A DNA stretch of 64,000 nt from Azolla caroliniana (Eukaryota > Plantae > Polypodiophyta). The notes below the pieces were generated by a model, which saw only the letters and a program-made list of their open reading frames with translations, did no database searches and was not told the DNA's origin. The position numbers were made by a program, and so were the translations under genes. Below are positions 4,522 through 62,840 of this stretch, piece after piece; the first letter of the stretch is position 1; every line of letters begins with the position of its first letter. The stretch is taken from assembly GCA_043228905.1 (NCBI GenBank), contig JBHGNT010000008.1, forward strand, positions 12,772,001-12,836,000, written 5' to 3'.

Positions 4522-4654
4522 TGTCAGGAACTCTATTAAGGCAGAGAAGGAATTAGTACTAAAAGAAGGATTAGTACTATTGTTGGGGAATAGTACTAAG
4601 ACAGAGAAGGATTAGTACTATGAGAGGTGTCGAACTTTGAGAGAAGGAATGAGT

Positions 4655-4696
<42 letters not shown>

Positions 4697-4986
4697 TGAT
4701 GCAAAAGATATATGTATTATATGAAGGAAGATATACAACAGTAGTTAGAAGGCTTAAGACTGGCGTTGAACCGATTTGGTTCGAACTAATGCCTTGCGCC
4801 TCCTTTTATAGTGTCTTCAGGAATACTCCTGAAGGTTCTAGAATGTTCCAGAGAAATCTGGAATATACATCAATTTCCCAATAAAACCTAAATGAAAATA
4901 ATATCCTTCAAATTACAATTCATAACCTAATGGTAAAGTCTCGACCCGTGTAACAAAAGGTTATGGGTTCGAGTCTAGTTATGACA
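4522..4986 (-). repeat. 3' LTR of element B (465 bp)
   Basis: Matches 9834-10286 except one substitution seen and a (GA)n tract 12 bp longer. Confidence 0.97.
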
Positions 4987-7900
4987 CTATCCCCCCTTTA
5001 AAACGACGAGTTCCACGAGTCGTTTTGGATTGAGGACCCGGTTTCTCGGGATATCGTCGATGGAAGTCTTCTAGAAGAGCACGAGCATTGGTCACATTCT
5101 CGATCGGTTCCCAAGTACGCTCGCTGGGACTATATCCTAGCCAATCGACTAGATAGTAGAGCTTGTTGCGAACAATCTTGGAATCGAGGATGGCAGCGAC
5201 CTCATACTCAGGTCCATCTTCGAGCTCGATAGGAGGTGGTGGTTGTATAGTACGTCCTGGGATAGTGCTCTCGTGATAGGGTTCGAGGAGAGAACTATGA
5301 AACACCGGATGTATCCGAAGTTGCGGAGGTAGCTCGAGACGAAAAGCGACATCATTAATCTTCCCGATAATACGGAAAGGACCTAATCGCCGATAATCCA
5401 ACTTCTCACATGGGCGAGTAGTCTTGATGTGTCGTCGTAGCAGCCACACCCGATCTCCAATGTTAAAACTGGATGGAAGTCGATGACGATCTGCGTAGTC
5501 CTTGTGTGATTGTTGAGCTTGCTGGAGTTGAGTAGATAAATCCGCTTGTATCTTGCGTAACCGCTCCAAACGATCCTCCGCGCAAGGATTTGTGGACACT
5601 TCTGGGGTTTCAAGGACACACCACCGGGGATGATATCCCGTATAAGCGTAGAATGGCGTGACTTTAGTCGATGCGTGGATAGCGTTATTATAGGCAAATT
5701 CGGCGAACTGAAGAATATCTGCCCAGTCATTCTGATGATAGTTGAGAAAGCACCGCAGATACTGCTCCAGTGTTTGATTTGTTCGTTCGGCTTGACCGTC
5801 GGTTTGTGGGTGGTAGCCGGAGGAGAGGTTACAAGTGACCTTCAGCATTTTAAAAAGGTGCTTCCAGAATTTTGACACAAACTGGGGTCCACGATCGCTG
5901 ATGATATTATCAGGGAGTCCATGATGCCGACATACTTCCCGCATGACAATTTCGGCAGTGTCTTCACTAGATATTTCTTTAGTACATGGTAAGAAATGAG
6001 CCATCTTCGTATATCGATCCACCACTGTGAGAATCGCACTGAATCCCTTAGAGACTGGAAGATCTGTAATGAAGTCAAGAGCAATGGATTGCCATGGCTT
6101 GCTTGGAATTGGTAATGGTTCTAATAAACCATATGGATGATGTCTTGGCATTTTCGCTCTGCAGCATGTATCGCAAGTCCGAACAAAATCTTCGACAAAT
6201 TGCCGCATACGGGGCCACCAGAATGATCGTTGTACTAAATCTAATGTTTTAGTACTACCAAAATGTCCTGCTGTATATGTGTCATGGCAGTTTTGTACTA
6301 CTCGAAGGCGGCAAGAACCATTAGGAACATACAAAAGTTCTTTAAAGAAGAGTAATCCATCACAGTATTTGAATTGCCGATAATCCGTACCTGGTGATTG
6401 TGATTGTGAACATGACGCTCGAGAGGGGTCAATTTGTGCTAGTATAGCTTGGGCGAAAGCGTCAGTCTTCAAGTCCTCACGTATAGTATTGGTAATGTCG
6501 GAATCCACGGGCATGTCAAAGACCTGTGCTGCTTGCAGTCGTGCTGGACCCAAGATTACTTGCTTCTGGTTATCGAAAGCTGGCTCACCGGGACGTGGTG
6601 TTAGATACGAACGCCGTGATAATGCATCTGCCTTCCCTTGGTGCTTCCCCGGACGATATGTAATTTTGAAGTCGAAGCGTGTGAGGAAGTGGGCCCACCG
6701 AGCTTGACGTCGATTCAGTACACGAGCATCTTGAAAGTAGGCAAGGTTCTTGTGGTCACTGAATACAGTGACCTGATGAGGAGATCCCTCCAGGAAATGC
6801 CTCCATTGCATAAAAGAATCAACTATTGCTAATAGCTCTTTATCATGAATTTCGTAGTTGATTTCGGCGGCGTCAAACTTACGGGAGTGGAAAGCCACAG
6901 GATGTAGCTTCTCGTCGTTACCCTGTTGTGACAGAATGCTCCCCAATGCGAAATCCGATGCGTCAGCTTCGATAATGAATGGTTTTTCCGGATCCACATG
7001 ACCTAAAATTGGAGCTGATGTAAACGCCTTCTTAAGACTCTCGAAAGCCATGTCCGTCTCTTTAGACCAAATGAATGATTGTCCCTTCCTGGTGAGTTGT
7101 GTGAGAGGCAGCACAATTTTTGAGTAATTTTGTATGAACTTCCGGTAAAAATTTGCAAAGCCTAGGAAGCATTGCACATCCCGCACCGAACGCGGAGTGT
7201 GCCATTCTATCACCGTTTTGACCTTGGCTGGATCCATAGATATGCCTTCTGAGGAGATGACATAGCCGAGAAATTCCACTTGGTTGCACCTGAAACTACA
7301 TTTCTCTAACTTTGCATACAGACCATGTTCTCGAAGTCGTTTTAGTACTAATAGTACATGAGAATCATGTTCTTCTTGGGTCTTTGAATAAACCAGTAGA
7401 TCATCCAAATAGATGATCAAAAAATCATCCAAGAGATCTCGAAATATATCATTCGCCATGTGCTGGAAGACTGCCGGCGCATTAGTGAGTTCGAACGGCA
7501 TGACCGTATACTCGAAGTGCCCATATCTGGTGCGAAACGCGGTCTTCCATTCATCTCCTGGTCGGATCCGTACGAGGTTATAGGCTCCTCGTAAGTCGAT
7601 CTTCGTGAAGAACCTGGCACCGTTGATCCGTTCTAAAAGACTTGAGATAAGGGGAAGAGCATACCTATTTCTTATTGTGACCTTATTCAAGCCACGGTAA
7701 TCTACAACGAGTCGAAGCGAGCCATCTTTTTTCTTGACGAAGAAAATGGGTGCGCCGGCTGGAGATTTCGAATGCCGAATGAAACCGTTCTCCAAATTCT
7801 CCTCTATATAGGCTCGAAGGACTTCTAGCTCGGTTGGTGACAAATTGTAGATCGGCCCCCATGGCGGCTCTTTTCCCGGTTGTAAGTCGATGGCGCAATC

Positions 7901-8575
7901 GTACGGCCGATGATGAGGAAGTGTGTTGGCTTGTACTTTATCGAACACATCAGCATACTGACGATACTTCTCGGGAAGTTGAACGGTGGACTCCTCTTTG
8001 GTGGTGCTGGAGGGTTGTATTGATATTGCGAAGAGAAACATTTCCTCCTTGCGCCCTTCCTCACGCAACTGACGTAGCGAAATGGTTGCAACCTTCTGGG
8101 TAGATCCTTGGGTTTGTCGCAACCGGATTTCCCTTGTCCTCCAATCTATGTCTGGGTTATGTAACTCGAACCATGGTAATCCTAAAACTATGGGATGTTC
8201 TGGAATACTAATAATATTAAATGATACTACACATGTTAAGTTATCTAGGACAATATTAACGGGTTCCGACTCTTCTATGATATTACCAGAAGCAATGGGA
8301 CGACCATCAATGACTACTACTGAGGCTGGACATGGGAGCTTTCTGAGAGATATCTGATGAGCTCGGGCAAAATTCCTATCCATGAAGCAAGAATTAGCTC
8401 CGGAATCTAGAAGGGCTAAGGTATGTACTGGAGGGGTACTTTTAGTACTAACTACTACTTGGGCTACGAACACATCACTAACTTGCTTAGAGGGAATGGA
8501 ACCACTAATGGGCTGCACAGATCTAGGGCTGTCCAACCAAACGGCTCCTATTTTGGCTGGACTTAGTCGTTTAAC
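4979..8575 (-). CDS. Element B Pol: protease-RT-RNase H-integrase-chromodomain, probably expressed by -1 frameshift
   Basis: LLDSGA, YLDD, EADAS, HHCC zinc finger, DFITDL/SDRG/AERTN, GPF, chromodomain YEVAAILD...YLVDWLGY...TWEP; frame is open upstream to the slippery site; stop lies inside the 3' LTR. Confidence 0.95.
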   Translation of the reverse strand, partial: VKRLSPAKIGAVWLDSPRSVQPISGSIPSKQVSDVFVAQVVVSTKSTPPVHTLALLDSGANSCFMDRNFARAHQISLRKLPCPASVVVIDGRPIASGNIIEESEPVNIVLDNLTCVVSFNIISIPEHPIVLGLPWFELHNPDIDWRTREIRLRQTQGSTQKVATISLRQLREEGRKEEMFLFAISIQPSSTTKEESTVQLPEKYRQYADVFDKVQANTLPHHRPYDCAIDLQPGKEPPWGPIYNLSPTELEVLRAYIEENLENGFIRHSKSPAGAPIFFVKKKDGSLRLVVDYRGLNKVTIRNRYALPLISSLLERINGARFFTKIDLRGAYNLVRIRPGDEWKTAFRTRYGHFEYTVMPFELTNAPAVFQHMANDIFRDLLDDFLIIYLDDLLVYSKTQEEHDSHVLLVLKRLREHGLYAKLEKCSFRCNQVEFLGYVISSEGISMDPAKVKTVIEWHTPRSVRDVQCFLGFANFYRKFIQNYSKIVLPLTQLTRKGQSFIWSKETDMAFESLKKAFTSAPILGHVDPEKPFIIEADASDFALGSILSQQGNDEKLHPVAFHSRKFDAAEINYEIHDKELLAIVDSFMQWRHFLEGSPHQVTVFSDHKNLAYFQDARVLNRRQARWAHFLTRFDFKITYRPGKHQGKADALSRRSYLTPRPGEPAFDNQKQVILGPARLQAAQVFDMPVDSDITNTIREDLKTDAFAQAILAQIDPSRASCSQSQSPGTDYRQFKYCDGLLFFKELLYVPNGSCRLRVVQNCHDTYTAGHFGSTKTLDLVQRSFWWPRMRQFVEDFVRTCDTCCRAKMPRHHPYGLLEPLPIPSKPWQSIALDFITDLPVSKGFSAILTVVDRYTKMAHFLPCTKEISSEDTAEIVMREVCRHHGLPDNIISDRGPQFVSKFWKHLFKMLKVTCNLSSGYHPQTDGQAERTNQTLEQYLRCFLNYHQNDWADILQFAEFAYNNAIHASTKVTPFYAYTGYHPRWCVLETPEVSTNPCAEDRLERLRKIQADLSTQLQQAQQSHKDYADRHRLPSSFNIGDRVWLLRRHIKTTRPCEKLDYRRLGPFRIIGKINDVAFRLELPPQLRIHPVFHSSLLEPYHESTIPGRTIQPPPPIELEDGPEYEVAAILDSKIVRNKLYYLVDWLGYSPSERTWEPIENVTNARALLEDFHRRYPEKPGPQSKTTRGTRRFKGGIVS

Positions 8576-9732
8576 TCTTCTTCTAATTGGCTAAGGACAT
8601 CAAATTTGTTTGCGAGATTCGGACTATTAGTACTATTAGGACTATTATGACTATGAGGACTATCAGAGATTCCTACTGAAATAGACTCGGGTTTAATATA
8701 GTCAGAACTAACAACGACTTGGTTTACCTGCCTTCTTGGTCTATGGGGACAGTTTATCGCGATATGCCCTGGTCCACCGCAATAAAGGCATAATCGGTTT
8801 GTTCGGCGTCGTTGCTTTTCCTCCTCCGATAGCGGCCCACGACGACGTGTAGTGTCAATTTCCATTGGAGTTGGAGTACTTACTGGAGGCGCATTATGTG
8901 ACTCCCTTTGAAAAGGTTTCGCTACCACTGAGACATAGGTAGGCTCGGATCTTGCCCTCGGCATCTGAAATTGTCGTTCCGAACGTCGCTCGAAGAGGCG
9001 GTTGTCACATCTAACCGCTCGACTGATTGCTTCTGTTAATGATTTTGGCTCTTCAGGGAAAGTCAAGAGTAAATCCTTGACATCGTTGCGTAGACCATAG
9101 CGGAACTGCTCCATCAATGCTTGATCATCCCAGGGGATATCGGCGGCGAGTAGGCGGAAATCTGCAGCATATGCGGAGGCTGGACGGTCACCTTGGCGTA
9201 ATCGCCGGATTTTGTTGATTGCAGTCCTTATGCTGTCAGTATCTCCAAAACATGCTTTAAACTCACTTATGAATTCTTCAAAATTATTTAGTACTGGAGA
9301 TTCCTTTTCTAGTAGCGGAGCGAACCATGCTAATGCTGAGCCATTTAACAACGTGCCTACTAAACCCACTCGTGATGCATCGGTGGGATATCGGGACGGA
9401 TGCATTTGAATAACTAACCGTACCTGGTTAAGAAACCCTCTAAACTGCGATCGCGTTCCATCGAACTTCGTGGGAAGGCCAATCTTGGGTTCTTTATGAA
9501 TCCCTTGTGCTCCGTGCCCTTGTTGTTGCATTGCTACGATGGTTGCTTCGAGTTGTTGCACACGTAACGCAAGTTCCCCATGCTGTTGTTGCGTTTGCTG
9601 CTTTTCTAAGGAAATTTGCTGAAGATCCCCCAACAAGCGTTGATTTTCTTGTTCCAAAGCATGAAACTTCTCTTTCAAGCATTGAAATTCCGAGAAAACG
9701 GATTGATACTCTTCAGCGCTAACGGTGGCCAT
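8563..9732 (-). CDS. Element B Gag (PEG10/sushi-like capsid, N-terminal coiled coil, CCHC knuckle)
   Basis: 389-aa ATG ORF with KFDG, LRQG, FRYGL and CLYCGGPGHIAINC. Confidence 0.95.
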   Translation of the reverse strand: MATVSAEEYQSVFSEFQCLKEKFHALEQENQRLLGDLQQISLEKQQTQQQHGELALRVQQLEATIVAMQQQGHGAQGIHKEPKIGLPTKFDGTRSQFRGFLNQVRLVIQMHPSRYPTDASRVGLVGTLLNGSALAWFAPLLEKESPVLNNFEEFISEFKACFGDTDSIRTAINKIRRLRQGDRPASAYAADFRLLAADIPWDDQALMEQFRYGLRNDVKDLLLTFPEEPKSLTEAISRAVRCDNRLFERRSERQFQMPRARSEPTYVSVVAKPFQRESHNAPPVSTPTPMEIDTTRRRGPLSEEEKQRRRTNRLCLYCGGPGHIAINCPHRPRRQVNQVVVSSDYIKPESISVGISDSPHSHNSPNSTNSPNLANKFDVLSQLEEELND

Positions 9733-9819
9733 GGGATGAAGGAAAAGGGAAATAAGAGACTAGTAGGAAAGGAGGGAGACAGAAGGAAGAGGGAGAGAAA
9801 AGACCAGACAGGCACCCAG

Positions 9820-9831
9820 AAATCGGTTCAA
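9820..9831 (-). promoter_or_regulatory. Non-tRNA (self-priming) primer-binding site of element B, TTGAACCGATTT
   Basis: Lies 2 nt from the 5' LTR, lacks TGG, and is 12/12 complementary to the LTR transcript sequence at 10077-10066, which starts 33 nt after the TATA at 10110. Confidence 0.85.
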
Positions 9832-9833
9832 AC

Positions 9834-10286
9834 TGTCAGGAACTCTATTAAGGCAGAGAAGGAATTAGTACTAAAAGAAGGATTAGTACTATTGTTGGGG
9901 AATAGTACTAAGACAGAGAAGGATTAGTACTATGAGAGGTGTCGAACTTTGAGAGAAGGAATGAGTGAGTGAGAGAGAGAGAGAGAGAGAGAATGATGAT
10001 GCGAAAGATATATGTATTATATGAAGGAAGATATACAACAGTAGTTAGAAGGCTTAAGACTGGCGTTGAACCGATTTGGTTCGAACTAATGCCTTGCGCC
10101 TCCTTTTATAGTGTCTTCAGGAATACTCCTGAAGGTTCTAGAATGTTCCAGAGAAATCTGGAATATACATCAATTTCCCAATAAAACCTAAATGAAAATA
10201 ATATCCTTCAAATTACAATTCATAACCTAATGGTAAAGTCTCGACCCGTGTAACAAAAGGTTATGGGTTCGAGTCTAGTTATGACA
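9834..10286 (-). repeat. 5' LTR of element B (453 bp) with TATAAAA at 10110-10104
   Basis: Direct repeat of 4522-4986. Confidence 0.97.
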
Positions 10287-15035: not shown

Positions 15036-15169
15036 AACATGTATCGGCTAATTAGCGGTTGGTAATGCTATCTAGCTCCGACTATCACTTTAGCTAACTG
15101 GAATAAACTTTAGCTAATTAGCTACTAGTTCACCATGTGTTTTGTCTATTTTACTATGGTCTTACATAA

Positions 15170-15425
15170 GTAGCTACTACTCTACTACAATCATAGCTAT
15201 TTAGCAACCACTCTTCCACAACCTTAACTAAATAGCTAGCACTCTTCCACAACCTCGACTAATTAGCTACCACTCTTGGATAGCTTTAACTAATTAGCTA
15301 CCACTCTTCTACAACCTTAGCTAATTAGCTACCAATCTTCCACAACCTTTAAAGTTATTTAGCTACCACTCTTCCACACCCTTAGCTATTTAGCTACCAA
15401 TCTTCCACAACTTTAGTTAATTACC
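15170..15425. repeat. ~31-bp degenerate tandem repeat (CTAATTAGCTACCACTCTTCCACAACCTTAA-like), about 8 copies
   Basis: Visible periodicity. Confidence 0.8.
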
Positions 15426-15936
15426 TCCTTAACCTATATTATACTACAGACTTTGTTATTTAGCGATTAGGGGGTTCCATCTAAGCTAAATATCCACAAC
15501 TATACTATGAACTTAGCACCATAGCTAATTACCTACTACCACAACTTATACTTTCATTATGGAGTACCAAAACTTACCTATCTATTTCGCCCACTCTTCA
15601 AGGAGAGTTGTGGAGCAATCCCCCAAACACATTGATGAAGTATGACAAGAGAATGTAAATTAGGTTGAGTGATATGTATGTATGGTAGCAGTTGTGTCCA
15701 CAATGGCTAGCTCGCATACAATGCATGTGGATTGAACAATCAATGTACTCTACCTTCCAACTACTACTTTTGCTAAGGGAACAGAAATGGTAATGTTGTA
15801 TTCCTATCTTTTTAAGGCAACACGTACGAGTTGTTCTTGATTTTGGTAACATTCCTAGAATGAAGAAGAAAATTTTATTGGTTTATCTTGAAACTTACTA
15901 GAAATGAACACATTGAAACCATTATAATAATCTTAC

Positions 15937-16401
15937 CTAGAGGTCCAGAACATCGTTGTTTGCAACATGTTTAAGCCCTAGACGATCTAGGTTCATTGTG
16001 AGAACCTGGATATCAAACTCTAGTTGGGTCTTATGCTCGAGATCCAGGGGCTTGTTCCTTTCAAGCCTATGATGATTGTTGAGAGATCAAGCTGAGAGTT
16101 AGTTTAGTTATTTAGTCAACCGTGTACTTCGTAGTTACCTAGATAGAATCTAGTTAGGAGTGTTGACTATAACACCTTAAATAGGACCTTGTACTTAAGT
16201 GGGATATTCTAGATCCTCCACTCTTAAGTACATTTAATATACGACTTACACCTTAGTACCTATATTCTACTCACATGTGCACTTTTGCACATGAGATGTA
16301 TATATACATCATTGTGGGTATTTTTGTATTTTTGTTGATGATAATGTTAATTTAATATAGAGTTAATCATCCCCCATCTTGTGTTGTTCATAAGTGTTAA
16401 C

Positions 16402-33557: not shown

Positions 33558-36500
33558 ATGGATAGAGGCATGGCGAGCTCGCTTCCAACAGAGAAGCTCG
33601 ACAGAACCAACTACGCGTCTTGGTCCTACAAGATGCACCAGTACCTGCTCGGGCACGGCTACTGGAGTTATGTCGAAGGAGCTAATGACGCGGCACCCGA
33701 ATCAACACACAGAGACTTCCCGTCGTGGGAGCAATCGGCGAGCAGGGTATTATACTGCTTCGCGTCGTGTGTGGGCAAACAACTATTGAGCTATGTTCGG
33801 GATGCAAAGACACCGAAGGGTGCGTGGGAAAATCTGAAGAAGATTTTCGCCGCGAGCACCACAGCCAAGAAGCTTCAGCTCCGACAAGAGTTGAACAACC
33901 TACGACAACGCGACTTGTCGATGGCGGACTATACCTCGAAGATCAAGGATATCTGCGACTCCCTTGCCTCCATAGAGGTGAACATCGAGGAGAGAGAGAT
34001 GGTCCAAATCTGTCTCGGAGGTTTGGCATCGAAGTTCGGAGCGTTCCGAACGGCTGTGTGTACCCGGGAGAATACGCCGTCCTTTTTCGACTTACAGTCA
34101 ATGCTCCTGGTAGAGGAGAACCACGCGGGTGTGTCTACAAGCACGCACACCAACAACAGAATGCTGTACACAGAGGGAGATAGGCCCCGTGGACGTGGAG
34201 GACGAGGCCAGTCGGCACGCAATGGAGGCGGCCGACGAGATCAAGGAAGAAGGCACCGAAGTGATGCCGACAGCAACTCCGGACCCTCCGGAAACAGGGG
34301 GAGTCGAAGCGATGAGAACCGGCAAGGGAAGGCCACAGGGAAAGTGAGTGCTGGAAGAAGCGCGCCGATTCGGAGAGAACCGGTTCCGGAAACGGCTCCA
34401 GACATACCGACAAGGGAAATCGGCAGTGACCGCACTACGCCGAAGACTCCGGGAGAGCCGGAGAAGGGTTTGTCTTCGTGATGAGACACGAAGCAAACTC
34501 AATGAAACGGACCACCCCGACATCGGACGAGGTGTGGTACATAGACTCCGGTGCGTCGAACCACATGACGAGTCATAAGGTGTGGTTCTCGTACCTTGAA
34601 AAACCGATACAACCTGGAGTAGTCGCAACTGGAGACGACACTCCGCATCTGATCGCGAATGTCGGAGAAGTTCCCCTTAGCCATGTCAGGCAGAAAGGGA
34701 AACTCATGAACGTGCTGCATGTTCCGACAATCACGAAGAACTTGGTCTCGGTCGGACAAATCGTTGACCAAGGGATGGAGGTTCGGTTTACACACTCGGG
34801 TGCTTCATTGAGGAAGAAGGCCGTGTGATTGCGCAAGGGCGCAGAGACGGGAGGATGTTCATCCTCGATTCCACTGACGGCGGCACCGCAATGTTCACGA
34901 AGGGACAAAAATCCAAGTCGGACATCGACTTGTGGTACAAGCGGATAGGCCACGTCAACTACCAGCGGCTTCAAGATCTGCAATCGAAACAAGTAGTGTT
35001 AGGATTGCCCAAATTTAGTGGCCGAAAGGCACAAATTTGTGAAGCCTGTCAGCTCGGGAAGCAACACCGACTTCCTTTCCCCAACGAGCGAAACCGGAGC
35101 CGGAACAAGCTCGACCTTATACACTCCGATGTATGGGGGCCGGCACAAAACGTTAGTCTTGGCAGGAGCCGATATTTCATCTCCTTCATCAACAACCACA
35201 CGCGGCACACGTGGATCTACCTCATTGAGAGGAAGAGCGAAGTCTTCGACTGTTCCGGGACCTCAAAGGGTTCGTGGAAACGGAAACGGGACGAAAGATC
35301 AAGTGCCTGCGGTCGGATGGCAGGAAAGAGTACTTTTCTGGTCAATTCAACGGTTATCTACAACAAATGGGAATTCGGCGCGAATTCAGTTGTAGATACG
35401 CGCCGGAGCAGAACGGCATGGCCGAGAGGAAGAATCGGTCGATTGTGGAAGCGGCACGGGCAATGCTGGAGGAGAAGAGTTTGCCTAAGTTCTACTGGGC
35501 CGAGGCGGTAAGGACCGCGGTATACATCCAGAACCGGATTGGAGACAAAGTGTCGGCGCACGAGCTATATTTCGGAACGAAGCCGAACTTGCAACACTTG
35601 AGGGTGTTTGGTAGCATTGCGTATGTGCATGTACCGAAGGAGAAAAGGAGGAAGCTGGACGCAAAGGCCGAGAAATGCATCTTGGTCAGTTACTCGGACG
35701 AGCAGAAGGGTTATAAGTGTCAAGGTTCGAACTCTTGACACAACCATGTTATAATCTAGTATTATGAGTTAACCAAGATATCTAGTACTAGTTATGTATG
35801 TAATTGGTCCTTATTATTTAACTAGCATCATGTGCATAGTTGCTCCCTTGTAGTATTTACACTTGGCACATGCATGCATACCTACATGCTCTATTGTAGA
35901 TTCACATGCGTGCAACAAGTATGCATGCCATGTAGTATAAATAGAGGAGTTCACCTTGAAGGAATTCAAGGTGAACTACACCAGTATGGAGTCTTTCCTT
36001 TAATACTATCTTCTTTCTTGTCCATTTGGTTATCTTCTTGCTTGTCTCTTGAGTTTATGATCCGTGACAATAAGTGCTATAACCCTCGCACCAAACAAGC
36101 GCGTGTCAGCCGCGACGTTGTGTTTGACGAGTCCGCGTCTTGGTACCAGCCCCCGACTCTGAACCCCAACTCCAATCCGAGCTCTGATGATGAGGTTAGA
36201 GAGGCCGAGATGCCTCCGGATGAGCCCGAAATCGAGACCCGCGAAGAGAGTCTGATTTCACTCCGTTTAAGTGGACCGAGTGGACCGATTGGATGACCGA
36301 GTCGGTACGACCAGTCAGATGAAGAGCCGGCGAGTAGTGGAGACTCGGTCGTGCATTCCCCGCGCAGGAAGCCGAGGAGACGGCTTACGCGCAAAGAGAA
36401 AGGGAAGAACAAGGTGTCGGATTCTAGCACGGATAGGAACGAGTCAGACCGACGCGAGTCCGACTCCGAGGGAACCGGTGACGGGTCTTTAAAGGTGAAG

Positions 36501-53026: not shown

Positions 53027-53466
53027 TGTTAGTAACATGACATAGTGACGTCAAATACGTTGTTAGTGAGTATTAAACCTGCAACCTTACATCAACAAGA
53101 CATCATGCTCAACCATCTGGATATGAGCATGTATTTGTATATAATAGAGTATTGTATATTCTAGTATATATACATTGCAGAATATTCTAGAGCCTTTAGT
53201 GTATTCTAGACGGGTATATTCTAGAGATATTTGTCAGGTATATCCACAAGATACTCAATCTCAGAACTTGTATAAATACTTGTAACCTCCTTGGTCCCTT
53301 TCAAGGGATTCAACATCAATCATTGACACATCAATCTAGTATTCTCATTTCATGTTATATTGTCTCCTTCATCTTCATATTTGTCTTCATGCTCGCTAGT
53401 TAACCCTAGCTTCCTATGTTCATAGTCTTGTCACTCACAGGTTCTAGAGTTCCTAGCCTCGTCACA
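53027..53466 (+). repeat. LTR of family H, plus orientation (right end approximate)
   Basis: Inverted homolog of 53835-54294 over at least the first ~310 bp; TATAAATA at 53271. Confidence 0.75.
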
Positions 53467-53499
53467 TCCGGTTCCACTTATCGGTTGTAACCTCGTCAT

Positions 53500-55372
53500 C
53501 CATGCTCCATCGTAGTCCATGGTTGGTGTGTCTGTGACCCCCACCAAAAAGTGAGTGGTTGTGACCCCCATCGGAACTATGAAGGTGAACGATCAACATC
53601 AATCCTTTTGATGAAGACAAGAAAAGGTCCTGAAAATGATGACGTCAAAGAAGACAAGGAAATGATGACGTCAAAGAAGACAAGGAAATGAAGACGATGA
53701 TGACGAGGAAGCCTCTCTAAAACCAAGGATGTTAATGAAGTTAACTTTGGAAGCAAGGATTGTGACGATGGTAACTCTCGAAGCAAGGGCGATCACGAAG
53801 ACGGGTGATGCTTCCAGTTGCAAGGGGTTCAAACTGTCACGTATACACCAACCGCAAACTCGGACAGAACACAAATAATAGGTTTACAAGAGTGGAACTT
53901 ATGAAGCTAGAAACGACACAAGAGCATGAAGACAGAGATGAAGAAGGACACAAGATGGAATGGAACAATAAGACTAGATTGATGTGTCAATGACTAGTGT
54001 TGATTTCCTTGAAAGGGACCAAGGAGGTTACACGTATTTATATAAGTTTTGAGATTGAGTATCTCTAGAATATACCTAACAAATATCTCTAGAATATACC
54101 ATAGAATATTTCTAGAATACACTAAAGGCTCTAGAATATTCTTGAATGTATATATGCTAGAATATACAATACTCTATTATAAACAGATACATGCTCATAT
54201 CTAGATAGTTGAGCATGATGTCTTGTAGATGTGAGGTTGTAGGTTCAATACTCATTAATCATGTATTTGACATCATTGTGTCGTGTCACTAACATTATAC
54301 TCCCCTACGGTTGTCTTTTTGAAAGCATGGAGTTGGAGCACTAACAGGCGTGAGGAATTGGAGCACTAACAGGCGTGAGGAACCATATGTTGTTTTCATT
54401 AGAGACTAGAACCCTAACGGACATGAGCGACCATGTGCAGTCCTCATCGAAGATTGGAACACCGACGGGCGTGAGCGACCATGTACAGTCCTCACCAGAG
54501 ATAAGAACCCCGACAGGTGTGAGTGGCCATGTGTGGCCCTCACCGAAGACTAGAACACCGATAGATGTGAGTGACCATGTGCAGTCCTCATCGGGAACAT
54601 GAACGGGCATGAGGGACCATGCGGCCCTCATCGGGAATTGGAACACGAACGAGAGTGAGCGACCATGTGGTCGTCACCAAGAACTAGAACACGAATGGGC
54701 ATGAGTGACCATGTGTGGCCCTCACCAAGAATTGGAACGTGAGTGACCGTGTGTTGTCTTCATCGTAACCACGAACGGGCGTGAACGACCATGTGGTCCT
54801 CACCGAGAACTAGAACATGAACCAGAGTGAGCGACCATGCGGCCCTCACCGGGAACTGGAACACGAACAGGCGAAGGAGTGCAAGTGAAGCGGTCAACTT
54901 GACTTCTTCTATTATGAGAGGGTAAATAGTCGAGGTTGACCCAAAACACAACACAAATGGTAGTGCTGGAGAGAAACCAACTCAATCCCCACCAGGAAAG
55001 TGAGTGGTTGTGACCCCCACTGAAACTAGAAGGTGAGTGATCGAACTAGGTCATCGCCAAAGGAAAGTGGCATGAGACTTGAACGAAAATGAAAATGGAG
55101 TGCAAGTGAGCAATGATTCAATCCCCACCAAGAAAGTGAGTGGTTGTGACCCCCACCGGAACTAAGAAGGTGAGTGATCGAAATCAATCCTTTTGATGAA
55201 GACAAGAAAAGGTGCTGAAAATGATGATGTCGAAGAAGACAAGGAAACGAAGAAGATGATGATGAGGAAATGTCTCTAAAACCAAGGATGTCAATGAAGG
55301 TAACTTTGGAAGCAAGGACTGTGATGATGGTAACTCTAGAAGCAAGGGCGATGACGAAGACGAGTGATGCTT
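53500..55372 (-). mobile_element. Non-autonomous LTR element H in tandem arrangement (internal-LTR-internal)
   Basis: LTR 53835-54294 has a PPT (AGGGGAGTATAA) on one side and a self-priming PBS (53821-53832) on the other; internal sequence 53540-53812 is repeated at 55125-55372; no recognisable protein. Confidence 0.75.
54340..54875. repeat. ~48-bp degenerate tandem repeat (GAGCGACCATGTGCAGTCCTCA...), about 11 copies
   Basis: Visible periodicity; 16-aa repeats in the ORF track. Confidence 0.88.
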
Positions 55373-55583
55373 TGTCAAAGTTAATATGCAAAAGCTTTGA
55401 CAAACCGGTTTATCCGGTCAACAACAGAAAACAGAGAAAGAAGGTTCAATGGAAGCTTAGGATACACAGGAGAGACAAGAGAGCAGAAAGCATAAACTCA
55501 ATTCAAAATAATAACACCTTGTACATACTGTTATGATATGGCAAGACTCGAACCCATGACCTTATGTTACAATTCATGAGAAC

Positions 55584-55853
55584 CATAGTTGTTAAAAAAC
55601 ACGTATTCTACGTTTAGAATACGTTTTAGAATACTCTGAAGTATTCTACGTTTTAGAATTGTCGTTTTTTAAAATTTGGCATATTCTATGTATTCTAAAA
55701 ATTCTACCTATTTAACAAGTATTTATCATTTCAAAAAAGTTTTTTTTTTTTTTTCTTTGTAATTGTTTTTGAAAAACAACTTTAAATTTTAAGTAGTTAA
55801 CGTATTTTACAAGTATTCTATACGTACTTTATACTAAGTATTCTATAACAATG
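55584..55853. mobile_element. hAT-type MITE (270 bp)
   Basis: Termini CATAGTT.../...AACAATG; 8-bp TSD ATGAGAAC/ATGACAAC; repeated GTATTCTA motif. Confidence 0.75.
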
Positions 55854-56023
55854 ATGACAACTACATAAGGCTCAACCATGTTGTCTACCTCGAGGCATTG
55901 TTTGCACACTCACATGAATGATATGCACTCATCGTGCCTACAAATGTGGTTTTGGTTCTCTTATTCCCCCATCGAGACCCTAAATAGTGTACATTGATGT
56001 AATGCACGGATATACATATATTT

Positions 56024-61418: not shown

Positions 61419-62716
61419 CTAAACTTCAGAGAATCGCACACGCACAGGCTCTTGTTCTTCACAACATAAATATTGTAGTAGAGGGAACAGGTATTGAGCA
61501 GATTAGGGAGGGTAGGGTGTAAAACAAAACGGATTCTTCTATGCAGTATGTAAATAAATAATGCATCACGACACACACACAGAGATGCGAACCTTGTCAG
61601 CAGCATCCGATCAAAAAGCAGAGGATCGTTTGTGGTTGCCCCACCTGCCCACCCATATGGAATATATATGTACATACATATAACAAACACCGTACGAAAC
61701 AAAAATCCTGCCTCAATCTGAAGCCTCTGATGCTTTTTTATTCCTTTTCTTTCTTTTTTTTATGTGGGCGATTTGATTGATTCTCCTCCCCCCCCGTGCG
61801 TGCAGAGAAAGTAGATTCTCATCGTGAGGAGGAGGAGGAGGAGAAGACCCATGCACATACATTAACATACATATGTTGTACTCCTACTACTAATTCATCT
61901 TCCAGATTCTTCCTAATCCTAAAGTCTAATAATTCTTTCTTTCTTTTTTTCTTATTGTTAACACATATGGTCATTCTCCTCTTATTAAGAAGATCCCTCT
62001 TCTTATTCTCTCCCTTGTTTCTATTTTTTTCTTAACCACAGCCCTCTGCCATTCAATAATAATAATGCTAGGGATCGTAAAAGAGGAGAGGAATGGAAGA
62101 TTTAATGGGCCTAAGGATATTTAACACGATGTTTAATCCCACGTACAGTGTCTCACTATAAAAGGTATTGAAAGGTTCCTCAACCCAATGATTGGATCAT
62201 TGGCTTGTTTATGGTAACAAGTAAGATTAATATATAATCACTTCATTTTATTCGTGTTATAGTTCATCGGTTTCTTGTTCATGTGTTCATGTCGTTGCAC
62301 CTCATCATCGAGAAATATGAGCAAAGAAATGGTATTTAAAGCCAAATTTTGGTGATATGTAAAAATGTAACTTGGTCTTACACCTACTCTCTCCCATCAA
62401 ATGTATGATCTATATGCCATAAAAGCAATTAAAAAGCAAAAGAAGCAAAAAAAAAAAGAAAAAAAAGATGATAGAACTAAGGAACATTGGAAATACATGT
62501 CCTTGACCACTTTTAAGGCGTACATAGATATATGTTTATAGACATTTTTGGATTATAAATTTTCTCACATACTACAATAAACTTACCGCAAATGAAAATC
62601 CTTTCTTTGTAACATGCACTCGTCCTTATCCTTGCATGGGTGTCTAACCATATCCACCTTTGCACTTACTCGTAGTCACTCCAATTTTCCTCCCTCCCAA
62701 TCAATCAATTGGTTTC

Positions 62717-62840
62717 AAACCCTCAACCACTTAGCTAAGAATGACTATAAGTCACCCACCACTTAAGCTAAATAAATAAGTTTCGGAACCCTCAACCACT
62801 TAGCTAATAATGATTACAAGTCACCACTTAAGCTAAACGT
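62717..62840. repeat. Short tandem duplication (AACCCTCAACCACTTAGCTAA...)
   Basis: Two copies about 70 bp apart. Confidence 0.75.

What the first reader, a model, noticed from the sequence alone, without database searches (positions are those of the whole stretch)
4916..4986. tRNA-like Pol III A/B-box cassette, antisense, at the outer U3 end of several LTR families
Seen: both B LTRs read on the plus strand TAACCTAATGGTAAAG...AAGGTTATGGGTTCGAGTC (A-box-like start 4923, B-box G 4967, spacing 44 nt). The H LTR reads TATCTAGATAGTTGAGC...CTTGTAG...GAGGTTGTAGGTTCAATAC (54198-54251, spacing 45 nt; inverted copy ~53070-53125). The solo LTR at 35718 has TAGATATCTTGGTTAA...GAGTTCGAACC on the minus strand, and 55530-55890 has TAGACAACATGGTTGAGC...GGTCATGGGTTCGAGTC on the minus strand. 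In B, H and the solo LTR it is opposite to the TATA promoter and near the LTR start. Established: tRNA genes have about 45 nt between position 8 and G53, and Cassandra TRIMs carry 5S-derived Pol III promoters in their LTRs. Inference: these otherwise dissimilar LTRs keep a tRNA-derived module acting as a TFIIIC insulator or a Pol III promoter. From the 3' LTR it would make a short RNA antisense to the PPT and pol end, stopping at TTTT near 5022-5026. I do not know of a description of this arrangement.
Basis: partly seen in the sequence, partly recalled or inferred. Interest (0 to 1): 0.82.

Follow-up and report, generated by a model that had tools for sequence, protein, structure and literature searches.

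The report
Retrotransposon LTRs carry backward tRNA promoter
A lineage of protein-coding jumping genes in a plant, likely a fern, keeps a tRNA-like promoter pattern pointing outward at the very edge of each terminal repeat, where it likely recruits the tRNA transcription machinery and would shield the element's own promoter from silencing.

Summary
The motif is real for element B and is a lineage trait. B is an intact Ty3/gypsy chromovirus (Tcn1 type, predicted self-primed), probably in a fern. Its LTRs carry an antisense A box and B box 44 nt apart, 20 nt from the U3 end. Ten related metagenome loci (integrase 59-82% identical, one clade, LTRs mostly unalignable) have the same cassette 20-52 nt from the LTR start, at 44-45 nt spacing, behind an A/T-rich 50-nt stretch like that of plant tRNA genes. 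Eleven distant relatives lack it. The cloverleaf and terminator are not conserved, and no tRNA model scores the cassette. The most likely role is a TFIIIC/Pol III site acting as a chromatin barrier for the Pol II promoter; this is inferred and untested. Closest known: Helenus and Cassandra TRIMs, which are non-autonomous and, where I checked (Helenus), carry the sequence in sense. I did not find the antisense, autonomous form in print.

The parts
4923..4933 (+). A box (tRNA 8-19) in the 3' LTR of element B, antisense to the element
   Evidence: 1 mismatch (G10 to A)
4958..4975 (+). tRNA positions 44-61: invariant AGGT, then the B box at 4967-4975
4866..4915 (+). A/T-rich stretch upstream of the cassette (predicted TFIIIB platform)
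   Evidence: 78% A+T against 61% in the next 150 nt
4522..4986 (-). 3' LTR of element B
   Evidence: target-site duplication CTCTA
4987..4999 (-). polypurine tract
   Evidence: sequence
5023..5026 (+). first T4 after the B box in the 3' LTR context; not conserved in relatives
4979..8590 (-). pol frame, 1203 aa stop to stop (PR, RT, RNase H, integrase, chromodomain); its stop codon lies inside the 3' LTR start
8563..9759 (-). gag frame, 398 aa stop to stop
9820..9831 (-). self-priming PBS, 12 nt complementary to LTR 10066-10077
9834..10286 (-). 5' LTR of element B (453 nt); Pol II TATA at 10105-10110
10223..10275 (+). A/B cassette of the 5' LTR, pointing out into flanking DNA
54198..54251 (+). 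diverged cassette in the H2 LTR (LTR 53835-54294, minus strand, followed by a self-priming-type PBS)
   Evidence: borderline on its own
53070..53123 (-). diverged cassette in the H1 LTR (starts at 53027, plus strand); C56 changed to T
35724..35732 (-). B box at the tip of solo LTR 35718-36069; no A box at tRNA spacing
55545..55571 (-). B-box half of the cassette in a rearranged LTR starting at 55529; first 41 nt are 97.6% identical to L001

Best explanation
A clade of autonomous, likely self-primed Tcn1-type chromoviruses keeps a tRNA-like A box and B box, antisense and at fixed spacing, at the outer end of U3, and this likely works as a type 2 RNA polymerase III promoter whose bound TFIIIC/TFIIIB would act as a chromatin barrier for the element's Pol II promoter. 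Shown: the anatomy, its conservation, its position and its clade distribution. Inferred: a single capture from a tRNA gene or SINE; TFIIIC binding at the boxes; TFIIIB loading on the A/T-rich stretch; outward transcription. Also inferred: at the 5' LTR this complex sits between host flank and the TATA box (112-183 nt inward of the A box) and stops heterochromatin spreading in. That would suit an integrase whose chromodomain keeps the aromatic cage and probably steers insertion into heterochromatin. Any RNA made is probably a by-product.
For: The cassette is present in 10 of 10 loci of the clade whose contig reaches far enough into U3 (L001, L002, L004, L005, L006, L010, L011, L012, L013, L025). 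Spacing is 44-45 and G53 lies 20-52 nt from the LTR start. Shuffles doing as well, of 2000: L001 0, L005 0, L012 0, L013 0, L010 4, B 5, L011 6, L002 12, L025 75, L004 539; 11 distant relatives 1173-1987; the sense strand is never below 45. Over 9 families, mean column conservation is 0.82 in the boxes, 0.60 at positions 22-43, 0.49 at 62-72 and 0.54 upstream. Between most families blastn aligns little beyond the cassette and the start-site hairpin. Leave-one-family-out profiles recover 9 of 12 rows at E<=0.01. The 50 nt upstream exceed the next 150 nt in A+T by 0.13-0.35 in 7 of 7 cassette LTRs, against -0.20 to +0.08 in 13 other LTRs; plant tRNA genes have such a stretch limited to 50 nt (PMC11700998, passages). 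A 17-nt word of the cassette falls in ARAGORN-called tRNAs in 97 of 121 viral-contig matches. The cloverleaf is not kept (55% of cells paired; no consensus fold), which fits selection on DNA. tDNA barriers need TFIIIC and Pol III and work in either orientation (PMC2040200, abstract).
Against: No binding, transcription or chromatin data. No covariance-model or default ARAGORN signal. G10 of the A box is changed in 7 of 9 families and C61 in 4 of 9. C56 is T in L004, L011 and H1, and in 11% and 9% of laid depth in two runs, a change expected to weaken TFIIIC binding (recalled). Within one family, non-box stretches are as invariant as the boxes. AGGT at 44-47 is invariant in 12 of 12 rows although it lies outside the classical B box; this model does not explain it. 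The barrier precedent I read is from fission yeast; I read none for plants. The relatives come from a few assemblies and are kin, not independent trials.
Confidence: 0.45

Rival explanations
1. It is a working Pol III promoter, but its role is self-restraint: an antisense RNA over the U3 start and PPT, or Pol III interference with the nearby Pol II promoter, dampens the element.
For: Same anatomy as above. A T4 lies inside the LTR after the B box in 6 of 12 rows, giving a self-contained short unit. Foamy virus LTRs make Pol III small RNAs from U3 (PMC3993851, passages). tRNA genes repress adjacent Pol II promoters in yeast (recalled).
Against: The terminator is not conserved: none within 250 nt past the LTR start in L001 and L005, and outside the LTR in B, L012, H1 and H2. 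No shared fold; z-scores run from -2.7 to +0.6.
Confidence: 0.17
2. It is a decaying relic of an old SINE or tRNA insertion, conserved only because LTR ends evolve slowly.
For: No tRNA model score. Frequent departures at G10, C56 and C61. Degenerate in L004 and H. No free SINE source among 15 profile hits with E<0.001 in 586 kb; all sit at LTR starts.
Against: The sequence between the B box and the LTR end differs in length (G53 20-52 nt from the end) and content, while boxes and spacing stay fixed. The A/T-rich stretch tracks the cassette, not the LTR end.
Confidence: 0.15
3. It works at the RNA level: the genomic RNA is complementary to the D and T arms of a host tRNA next to the PPT, like the 3' tRNA sites of Ty3 and Drosophila Gypsy, and aids dimerisation, packaging or strand transfer.
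For: The antisense orientation is what this predicts. The best-kept block is contiguous (44-61) and includes AGGT outside the B box. Ty3 and Gypsy have 3' tRNA-binding sites (PMC1635307, passages). A tRNA-like sequence in HIV-1 U3 is recalled, not read.
Against: The elements have an 11-12 nt PBS complementary to their own LTR, not a tRNA PBS. Transitions that break pairing to a tRNA are commoner (20 of 117 cells) than wobble-tolerated ones (14 of 204; Fisher p=0.007, cells not independent). It does not explain the A/T-rich upstream stretch.
Confidence: 0.13
4. TFIIIC binds the B box on the linear cDNA beside the integrase attachment site and helps assemble or steer the integration complex, possibly toward Pol III loci or other copies.
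For: The B box is 15-52 nt from the cDNA end. The sister group (solo LTR 35718, L018, L020) keeps only a B box at the tip. Ty3 and the self-primed Tj1 target Pol III genes (PMC4600332, passages).
Against: B sits inside another element's coding region and the solo LTR inside a copia integrase region, neither at a Pol III cassette. The A box and upstream stretch would not be needed.
Confidence: 0.1

Closest known systems
Helenus TRIMs / TRIMp3 (Kojima 2024, PMC10886601; main text parts 1-5 of 6 and supplement passages read)
   Same: tRNA-derived sequence in both LTRs, conserved around boxes A and B, mostly not a functional tRNA; one plant family, in Selaginella.
   Different: Helenus is non-autonomous (311-1263 bp) and tRNA-primed. 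In the 4 LTR consensus records I saw the tRNA part is in sense and central, and it is proposed to transcribe the element. Here it is antisense, at the U3 tip, in a 5.8-kb autonomous element with its own TATA box. Kojima notes that 'not a few' Repbase LTRs resemble tRNAs but analysed only TRIMs, so autonomous cases may sit undescribed in Repbase.
Cassandra and Ajax TRIMs (as described in PMC10886601 and PMC12786077, passages)
   Same: Small-RNA-gene-derived Pol III promoter inside plant or animal LTRs.
   Different: 5S-type promoter, non-autonomous; Cassandra's promoter makes the element's own RNA.
Tcn1 clade chromoviruses (PMC6317226, PMC2864245, PMC3350952; passages)
   Same: Non-seed plant host, aromatic-cage chromodomain, predicted self-priming.
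   Different: No Pol III cassette in the passages read (0 hits for 'polymerase III' in PMC2864245). Related loci L022 and L023 lack it.
Foamy virus U3 Pol III microRNA cassettes (PMC3993851, passages)
   Same: Pol III units inside U3 of an autonomous retroelement that also has a Pol II promoter.
   Different: They make hairpin microRNAs with terminators; here no conserved hairpin or terminator.
tDNA heterochromatin barrier at S. pombe cen1 (PMC2040200, abstract)
   Same: The proposed mode of action.
   Different: A real host tRNA gene, tested; here a degenerate element-borne cassette, untested.
Ty3 / Gypsy 3' tRNA-binding sites (PMC1635307, passages)
   Same: tRNA-complementary sequence near the 3' end of the genomic RNA.
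   Different: Those elements are tRNA-primed; these appear self-primed.

Membership tests
Helenus / TRIMp3 | tRNA-derived A and B boxes in the LTR | tested here: met
Helenus / TRIMp3 | non-autonomous, about 1.3 kb or less, no coding capacity | tested here: not met
   intact gag and pol, 5.8 kb
Helenus / TRIMp3 | promoter in sense, able to make the element's RNA | tested here: not met
   antisense only; Helenus records seen are sense
Helenus / TRIMp3 | tRNA-complementary PBS | tested here: not met
   PBS complementary to its own LTR
Tcn1 chromovirus | Ty3/gypsy domain order with C-terminal chromodomain keeping the aromatic cage | tested here: met
   cage positions judged by eye from the recalled HP1 pattern
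Tcn1 chromovirus | self-priming PBS | tested here: met
   11-12 nt complement in B, L005, L011, L013, L017 and H2; priming itself not tested
Tcn1 chromovirus | placement in the REXdb Tcn1 clade on an RT-RH-INT tree | not testable with these tools
   no named references available; one search holds unnamed loci only
Tcn1 chromovirus | non-seed plant host | tested here: inconclusive
   two OPT exons: best named full-length hit Ceratopteris 76% and 79%; lycophyte 67/72%, conifer 73/70%; host not named
functional tRNA gene | cloverleaf and covariance-model score | tested here: not met
type 2 Pol III promoter | A and B boxes at tRNA spacing with A/T-rich upstream DNA | tested here: met
type 2 Pol III promoter | oligo-T terminator shortly downstream | tested here: inconclusive
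   inside the LTR in 6 of 12 rows, outside in 4, none within 250 nt in 2
type 2 Pol III promoter | TFIIIC and Pol III occupancy, transcription | not testable with these tools
   only poly(A) RNA runs of another species were laid
SINE insertion | free-standing copies with tail and target-site duplication | tested here: inconclusive
   none in 586 kb, which is mostly retroelement DNA; no whole genome held

The most novel reading that the evidence does not exclude
An autonomous, heterochromatin-seeking retrotransposon carries its own tRNA-gene insulator: each LTR assembles an outward-facing Pol III complex that keeps the element's Pol II promoter open where it lands, and thousands of copies and solo LTRs scatter TFIIIC boundary sites through the host genome.
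Probability: 0.35. Interest if true: 0.85.

Novelty: new variant of a known kind. Interest (0 to 1): 0.64.

Why it matters
How chromoviruses stay active after inserting into heterochromatin is open. A built-in Pol III barrier would be a concrete, testable answer and a plant example of tDNA-type insulation used by a transposon. The family is very abundant (2365 contigs of one run lie on a 126-nt stretch), so it could supply many TFIIIC sites to the host. It also extends small-RNA-derived LTR promoters from miniature non-autonomous elements to coding ones, in the opposite orientation.

Tried and rejected
Rfam on the window and on two 120-130 nt stretches: no tRNA hit. ARAGORN default on the window and on 58 of the first 85 loci: none. 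Lowered thresholds give 32 to 386 calls and are uninformative. Cloverleaf pairs: 55% paired against 51% shuffled; register 0 beats slid registers and the covariation score is reached by 1 of 500 shuffles, so a trace of tRNA ancestry may remain, but related sequences can give this. Expression: no RNA holder listed; poly(A) runs of another species gave 19 and 4 reads with no start or end pile-up, which says nothing about a short Pol III RNA. A CpG-decay argument (CG kept at 56-57 in 5 of 9 families, at 48-49 in 0 of 9) was dropped because real tRNAs often have CA at 48-49. A landing-pad role found no support at the two insertion sites inspected. The viral-contig protein scan gave only 6 distant elements. 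One control row (14736) was not an LTR start and is excluded; two others (A, 52528) were offset by 1-2 nt. LTR starts of distant loci were placed by a PPT+TG pattern, not by LTR pairs; L008, L009, L016, L024, L046 and L084 had none found and were not scored; L028 was not scored either. No whole genome is held for this window. Earlier-findings look-ups by words and by sequence found no report of this cassette.

Full report
Setting. The window is repeat-rich plant DNA with an OPT transporter gene at 58-61 kb. Two OPT exons match Ceratopteris best among named full-length proteins (76% and 79%), ahead of lycophyte, conifer and angiosperm hits, so the host is probably a fern. One earlier AI note on this genome says moss; this is not settled. 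Element B lies on the minus strand: LTRs 9834-10286 and 4522-4986, 97% identical, with a CTCTA duplication, open gag and pol frames, and a chromodomain. Its PBS is complementary over 12 nt to the LTR just after the TATA box, and the same holds, with different letters in some families, in L005, L011, L013, L017 and H2. This matches the predicted self-priming of the Tcn1 clade (PMC6317226, passages).

Observation. B has the A box at 4923 and G53 at 4967, spacing 44, antisense, 20 nt from the LTR start. Of 2000 shuffles of the first 150 nt, 5 score as well; across the whole window such sites number 2 against 0.9 expected, so a single window is not decisive. H is borderline (48 and 61 of 2000). 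The solo LTR at 35718 has a good B box but the cited A box is 52 nt away (104 of 2000, like two copia controls at 103 and 107). The cited A box at 55887 is 334 nt from its B box. No tRNA finder scores any of them at normal thresholds.

Relatives. A scan with the integrase-chromodomain alignment returned 79 loci, the best 80 of 555 confirmed matches in a partial scan. Ten loci at 59-82% identity carry the cassette in the same place and orientation. With B, nine of these (L006, a near-copy of L005, was left out) lie on one branch at 100/99 support; that branch also holds L003, L007 and L015, whose contigs end too early to score (36 rows, midpoint root). Shuffle counts were 0, 0, 0, 0, 4, 6, 12, 75 and 539 of 2000 for the nine; 11 distant relatives gave 1173-1987. 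L018 and L020, on a separate branch, resemble the solo LTR and keep only a B box at the tip (80 and 126 of 2000); L017 and L019 are degenerate. Seven other LTR starts in the window gave 103-1998. Between most families the LTRs align only at the cassette and the start-site hairpin; B/L001 and L004/L010 are alignable pairs. Leave-one-family-out profiles recover 9 of 12 rows at E<=0.01, L004 at E=2.1, and miss both H copies.

What is kept. Over nine families, T8, T16, G19, A44-G45-G46-T47, G53, T55 and A58 are invariant. Box columns average 0.82 conservation, positions 22-43 0.60, positions 62-72 0.49. A 17-nt word from the 45-61 region lies in called tRNA genes in 97 of 121 viral-contig matches, of many isotypes, so the part is tRNA-like but the isotype is open. 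The cloverleaf is not maintained. The 50 nt upstream are 78-90% A+T, a step not seen in 13 other LTRs; plant tRNA genes show the same 50-nt stretch (PMC11700998, passages; PMC3082873, abstract). A T4 follows inside the LTR in 6 of 12 rows, outside in 4, and is absent within 250 nt in 2. Against a strict promoter reading, G10 differs in 7 of 9 families and C61 in 4 of 9. C56 is T in three rows and in about a tenth of laid depth in two of three contig runs. Within the L001 family the boxes are no more invariant than neighbouring stretches.

Mechanism. The kept features are those a type 2 Pol III promoter needs on DNA, and the lost ones are those an RNA would need. The cassette faces outward, so it cannot make the element's RNA; the Pol II TATA lies 112-183 nt inward. 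I infer that TFIIIC and TFIIIB assemble there and that at the 5' LTR the complex forms a barrier between flank and promoter, as tRNA genes do at the fission yeast centromere in either orientation (PMC2040200, abstract). A group I chromodomain targets MAGGY to H3K9-methylated chromatin (PMC3350952, passages), which would make a barrier useful. None of these steps was tested (0.45). Rivals are antisense or interference self-restraint (0.17), a relic (0.15), pairing of the genomic RNA with a host tRNA as in Ty3 and Gypsy (0.13; disfavoured by self-priming and by 20 of 117 pairing-breaking against 14 of 204 tolerated transitions), and TFIIIC on the cDNA end (0.10). The invariant AGGT is unexplained.

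Comparison and novelty. tRNA- or 5S-derived Pol III promoters in LTRs are known from Helenus, Ajax and Cassandra (PMC10886601), and Pol III units in U3 from foamy viruses (PMC3993851). This is not Helenus: it is autonomous, antisense and not tRNA-primed. Six searches of the open library did not return an antisense tRNA-type cassette in autonomous LTR elements. Most subscription papers and Repbase records are not covered, and Kojima mentions unanalysed tRNA-like LTRs. Of the Helenus supplement I saw only passages. Verdict: a real lineage-wide feature, a new variant of a known kind, function inferred. Interest 0.64.

Noticed in passing
window 4938-4975 and 10238-10275; L001, L002, L025: In these families the middle of the cassette is an inverted copy of the T-arm/B-box region and folds into a long non-tRNA hairpin (z -2.0 in B, -2.7 in L001, -0.6 in L002; L025 by eye), with an apparent compensatory change in L002. 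Absent in L005, L010, L012, L013.
   Followed up: partly
window 4979-4999: The last codons of pol overlap the PPT and the stop codon lies inside the LTR's first 8 nt; several relatives end the same way.
   Followed up: partly
window 35718-36069: Solo LTR with ATAAG duplication inside a copia integrase region; its first 23 nt form a hairpin with the B box in it. It matches L020, on a branch separate from the full-cassette clade.
   Followed up: partly
window 53027-54294: Two H-family LTRs in inverted orientation about 530 nt apart; H2 is a 5' LTR with a self-priming-type PBS and a truncated interior.
   Followed up: partly
window 55529-55890: LTR start nearly identical to L001 for 41 nt, then about 300 nt of A/T-rich repeats, then a piece resembling the middle of the L002 cassette; possibly a cassette split by an insertion.
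   Followed up: no
window 62703-62837: A 70-nt tandem duplication upstream of the OPT gene with an A-box-like stretch on the minus strand; weak profile hits (E 2-6).
   Followed up: no
P0020: A related pol carries a dUTPase domain (PF00692) before the reverse transcriptase.
   Followed up: no
window 28950, 33031, 38720, 48418: Copia LTRs begin with a short inverted repeat that recreates the terminal sequence within the first 21 nt.
   Followed up: no
window 15997-16400: LTR-like stretch with a TATA box and a long hairpin after it, but no significant cassette (1998 of 2000).
   Followed up: partly
window 15150-15457 and 54354-54905: Tandem arrays of 31-nt and 48-nt units.
   Followed up: no
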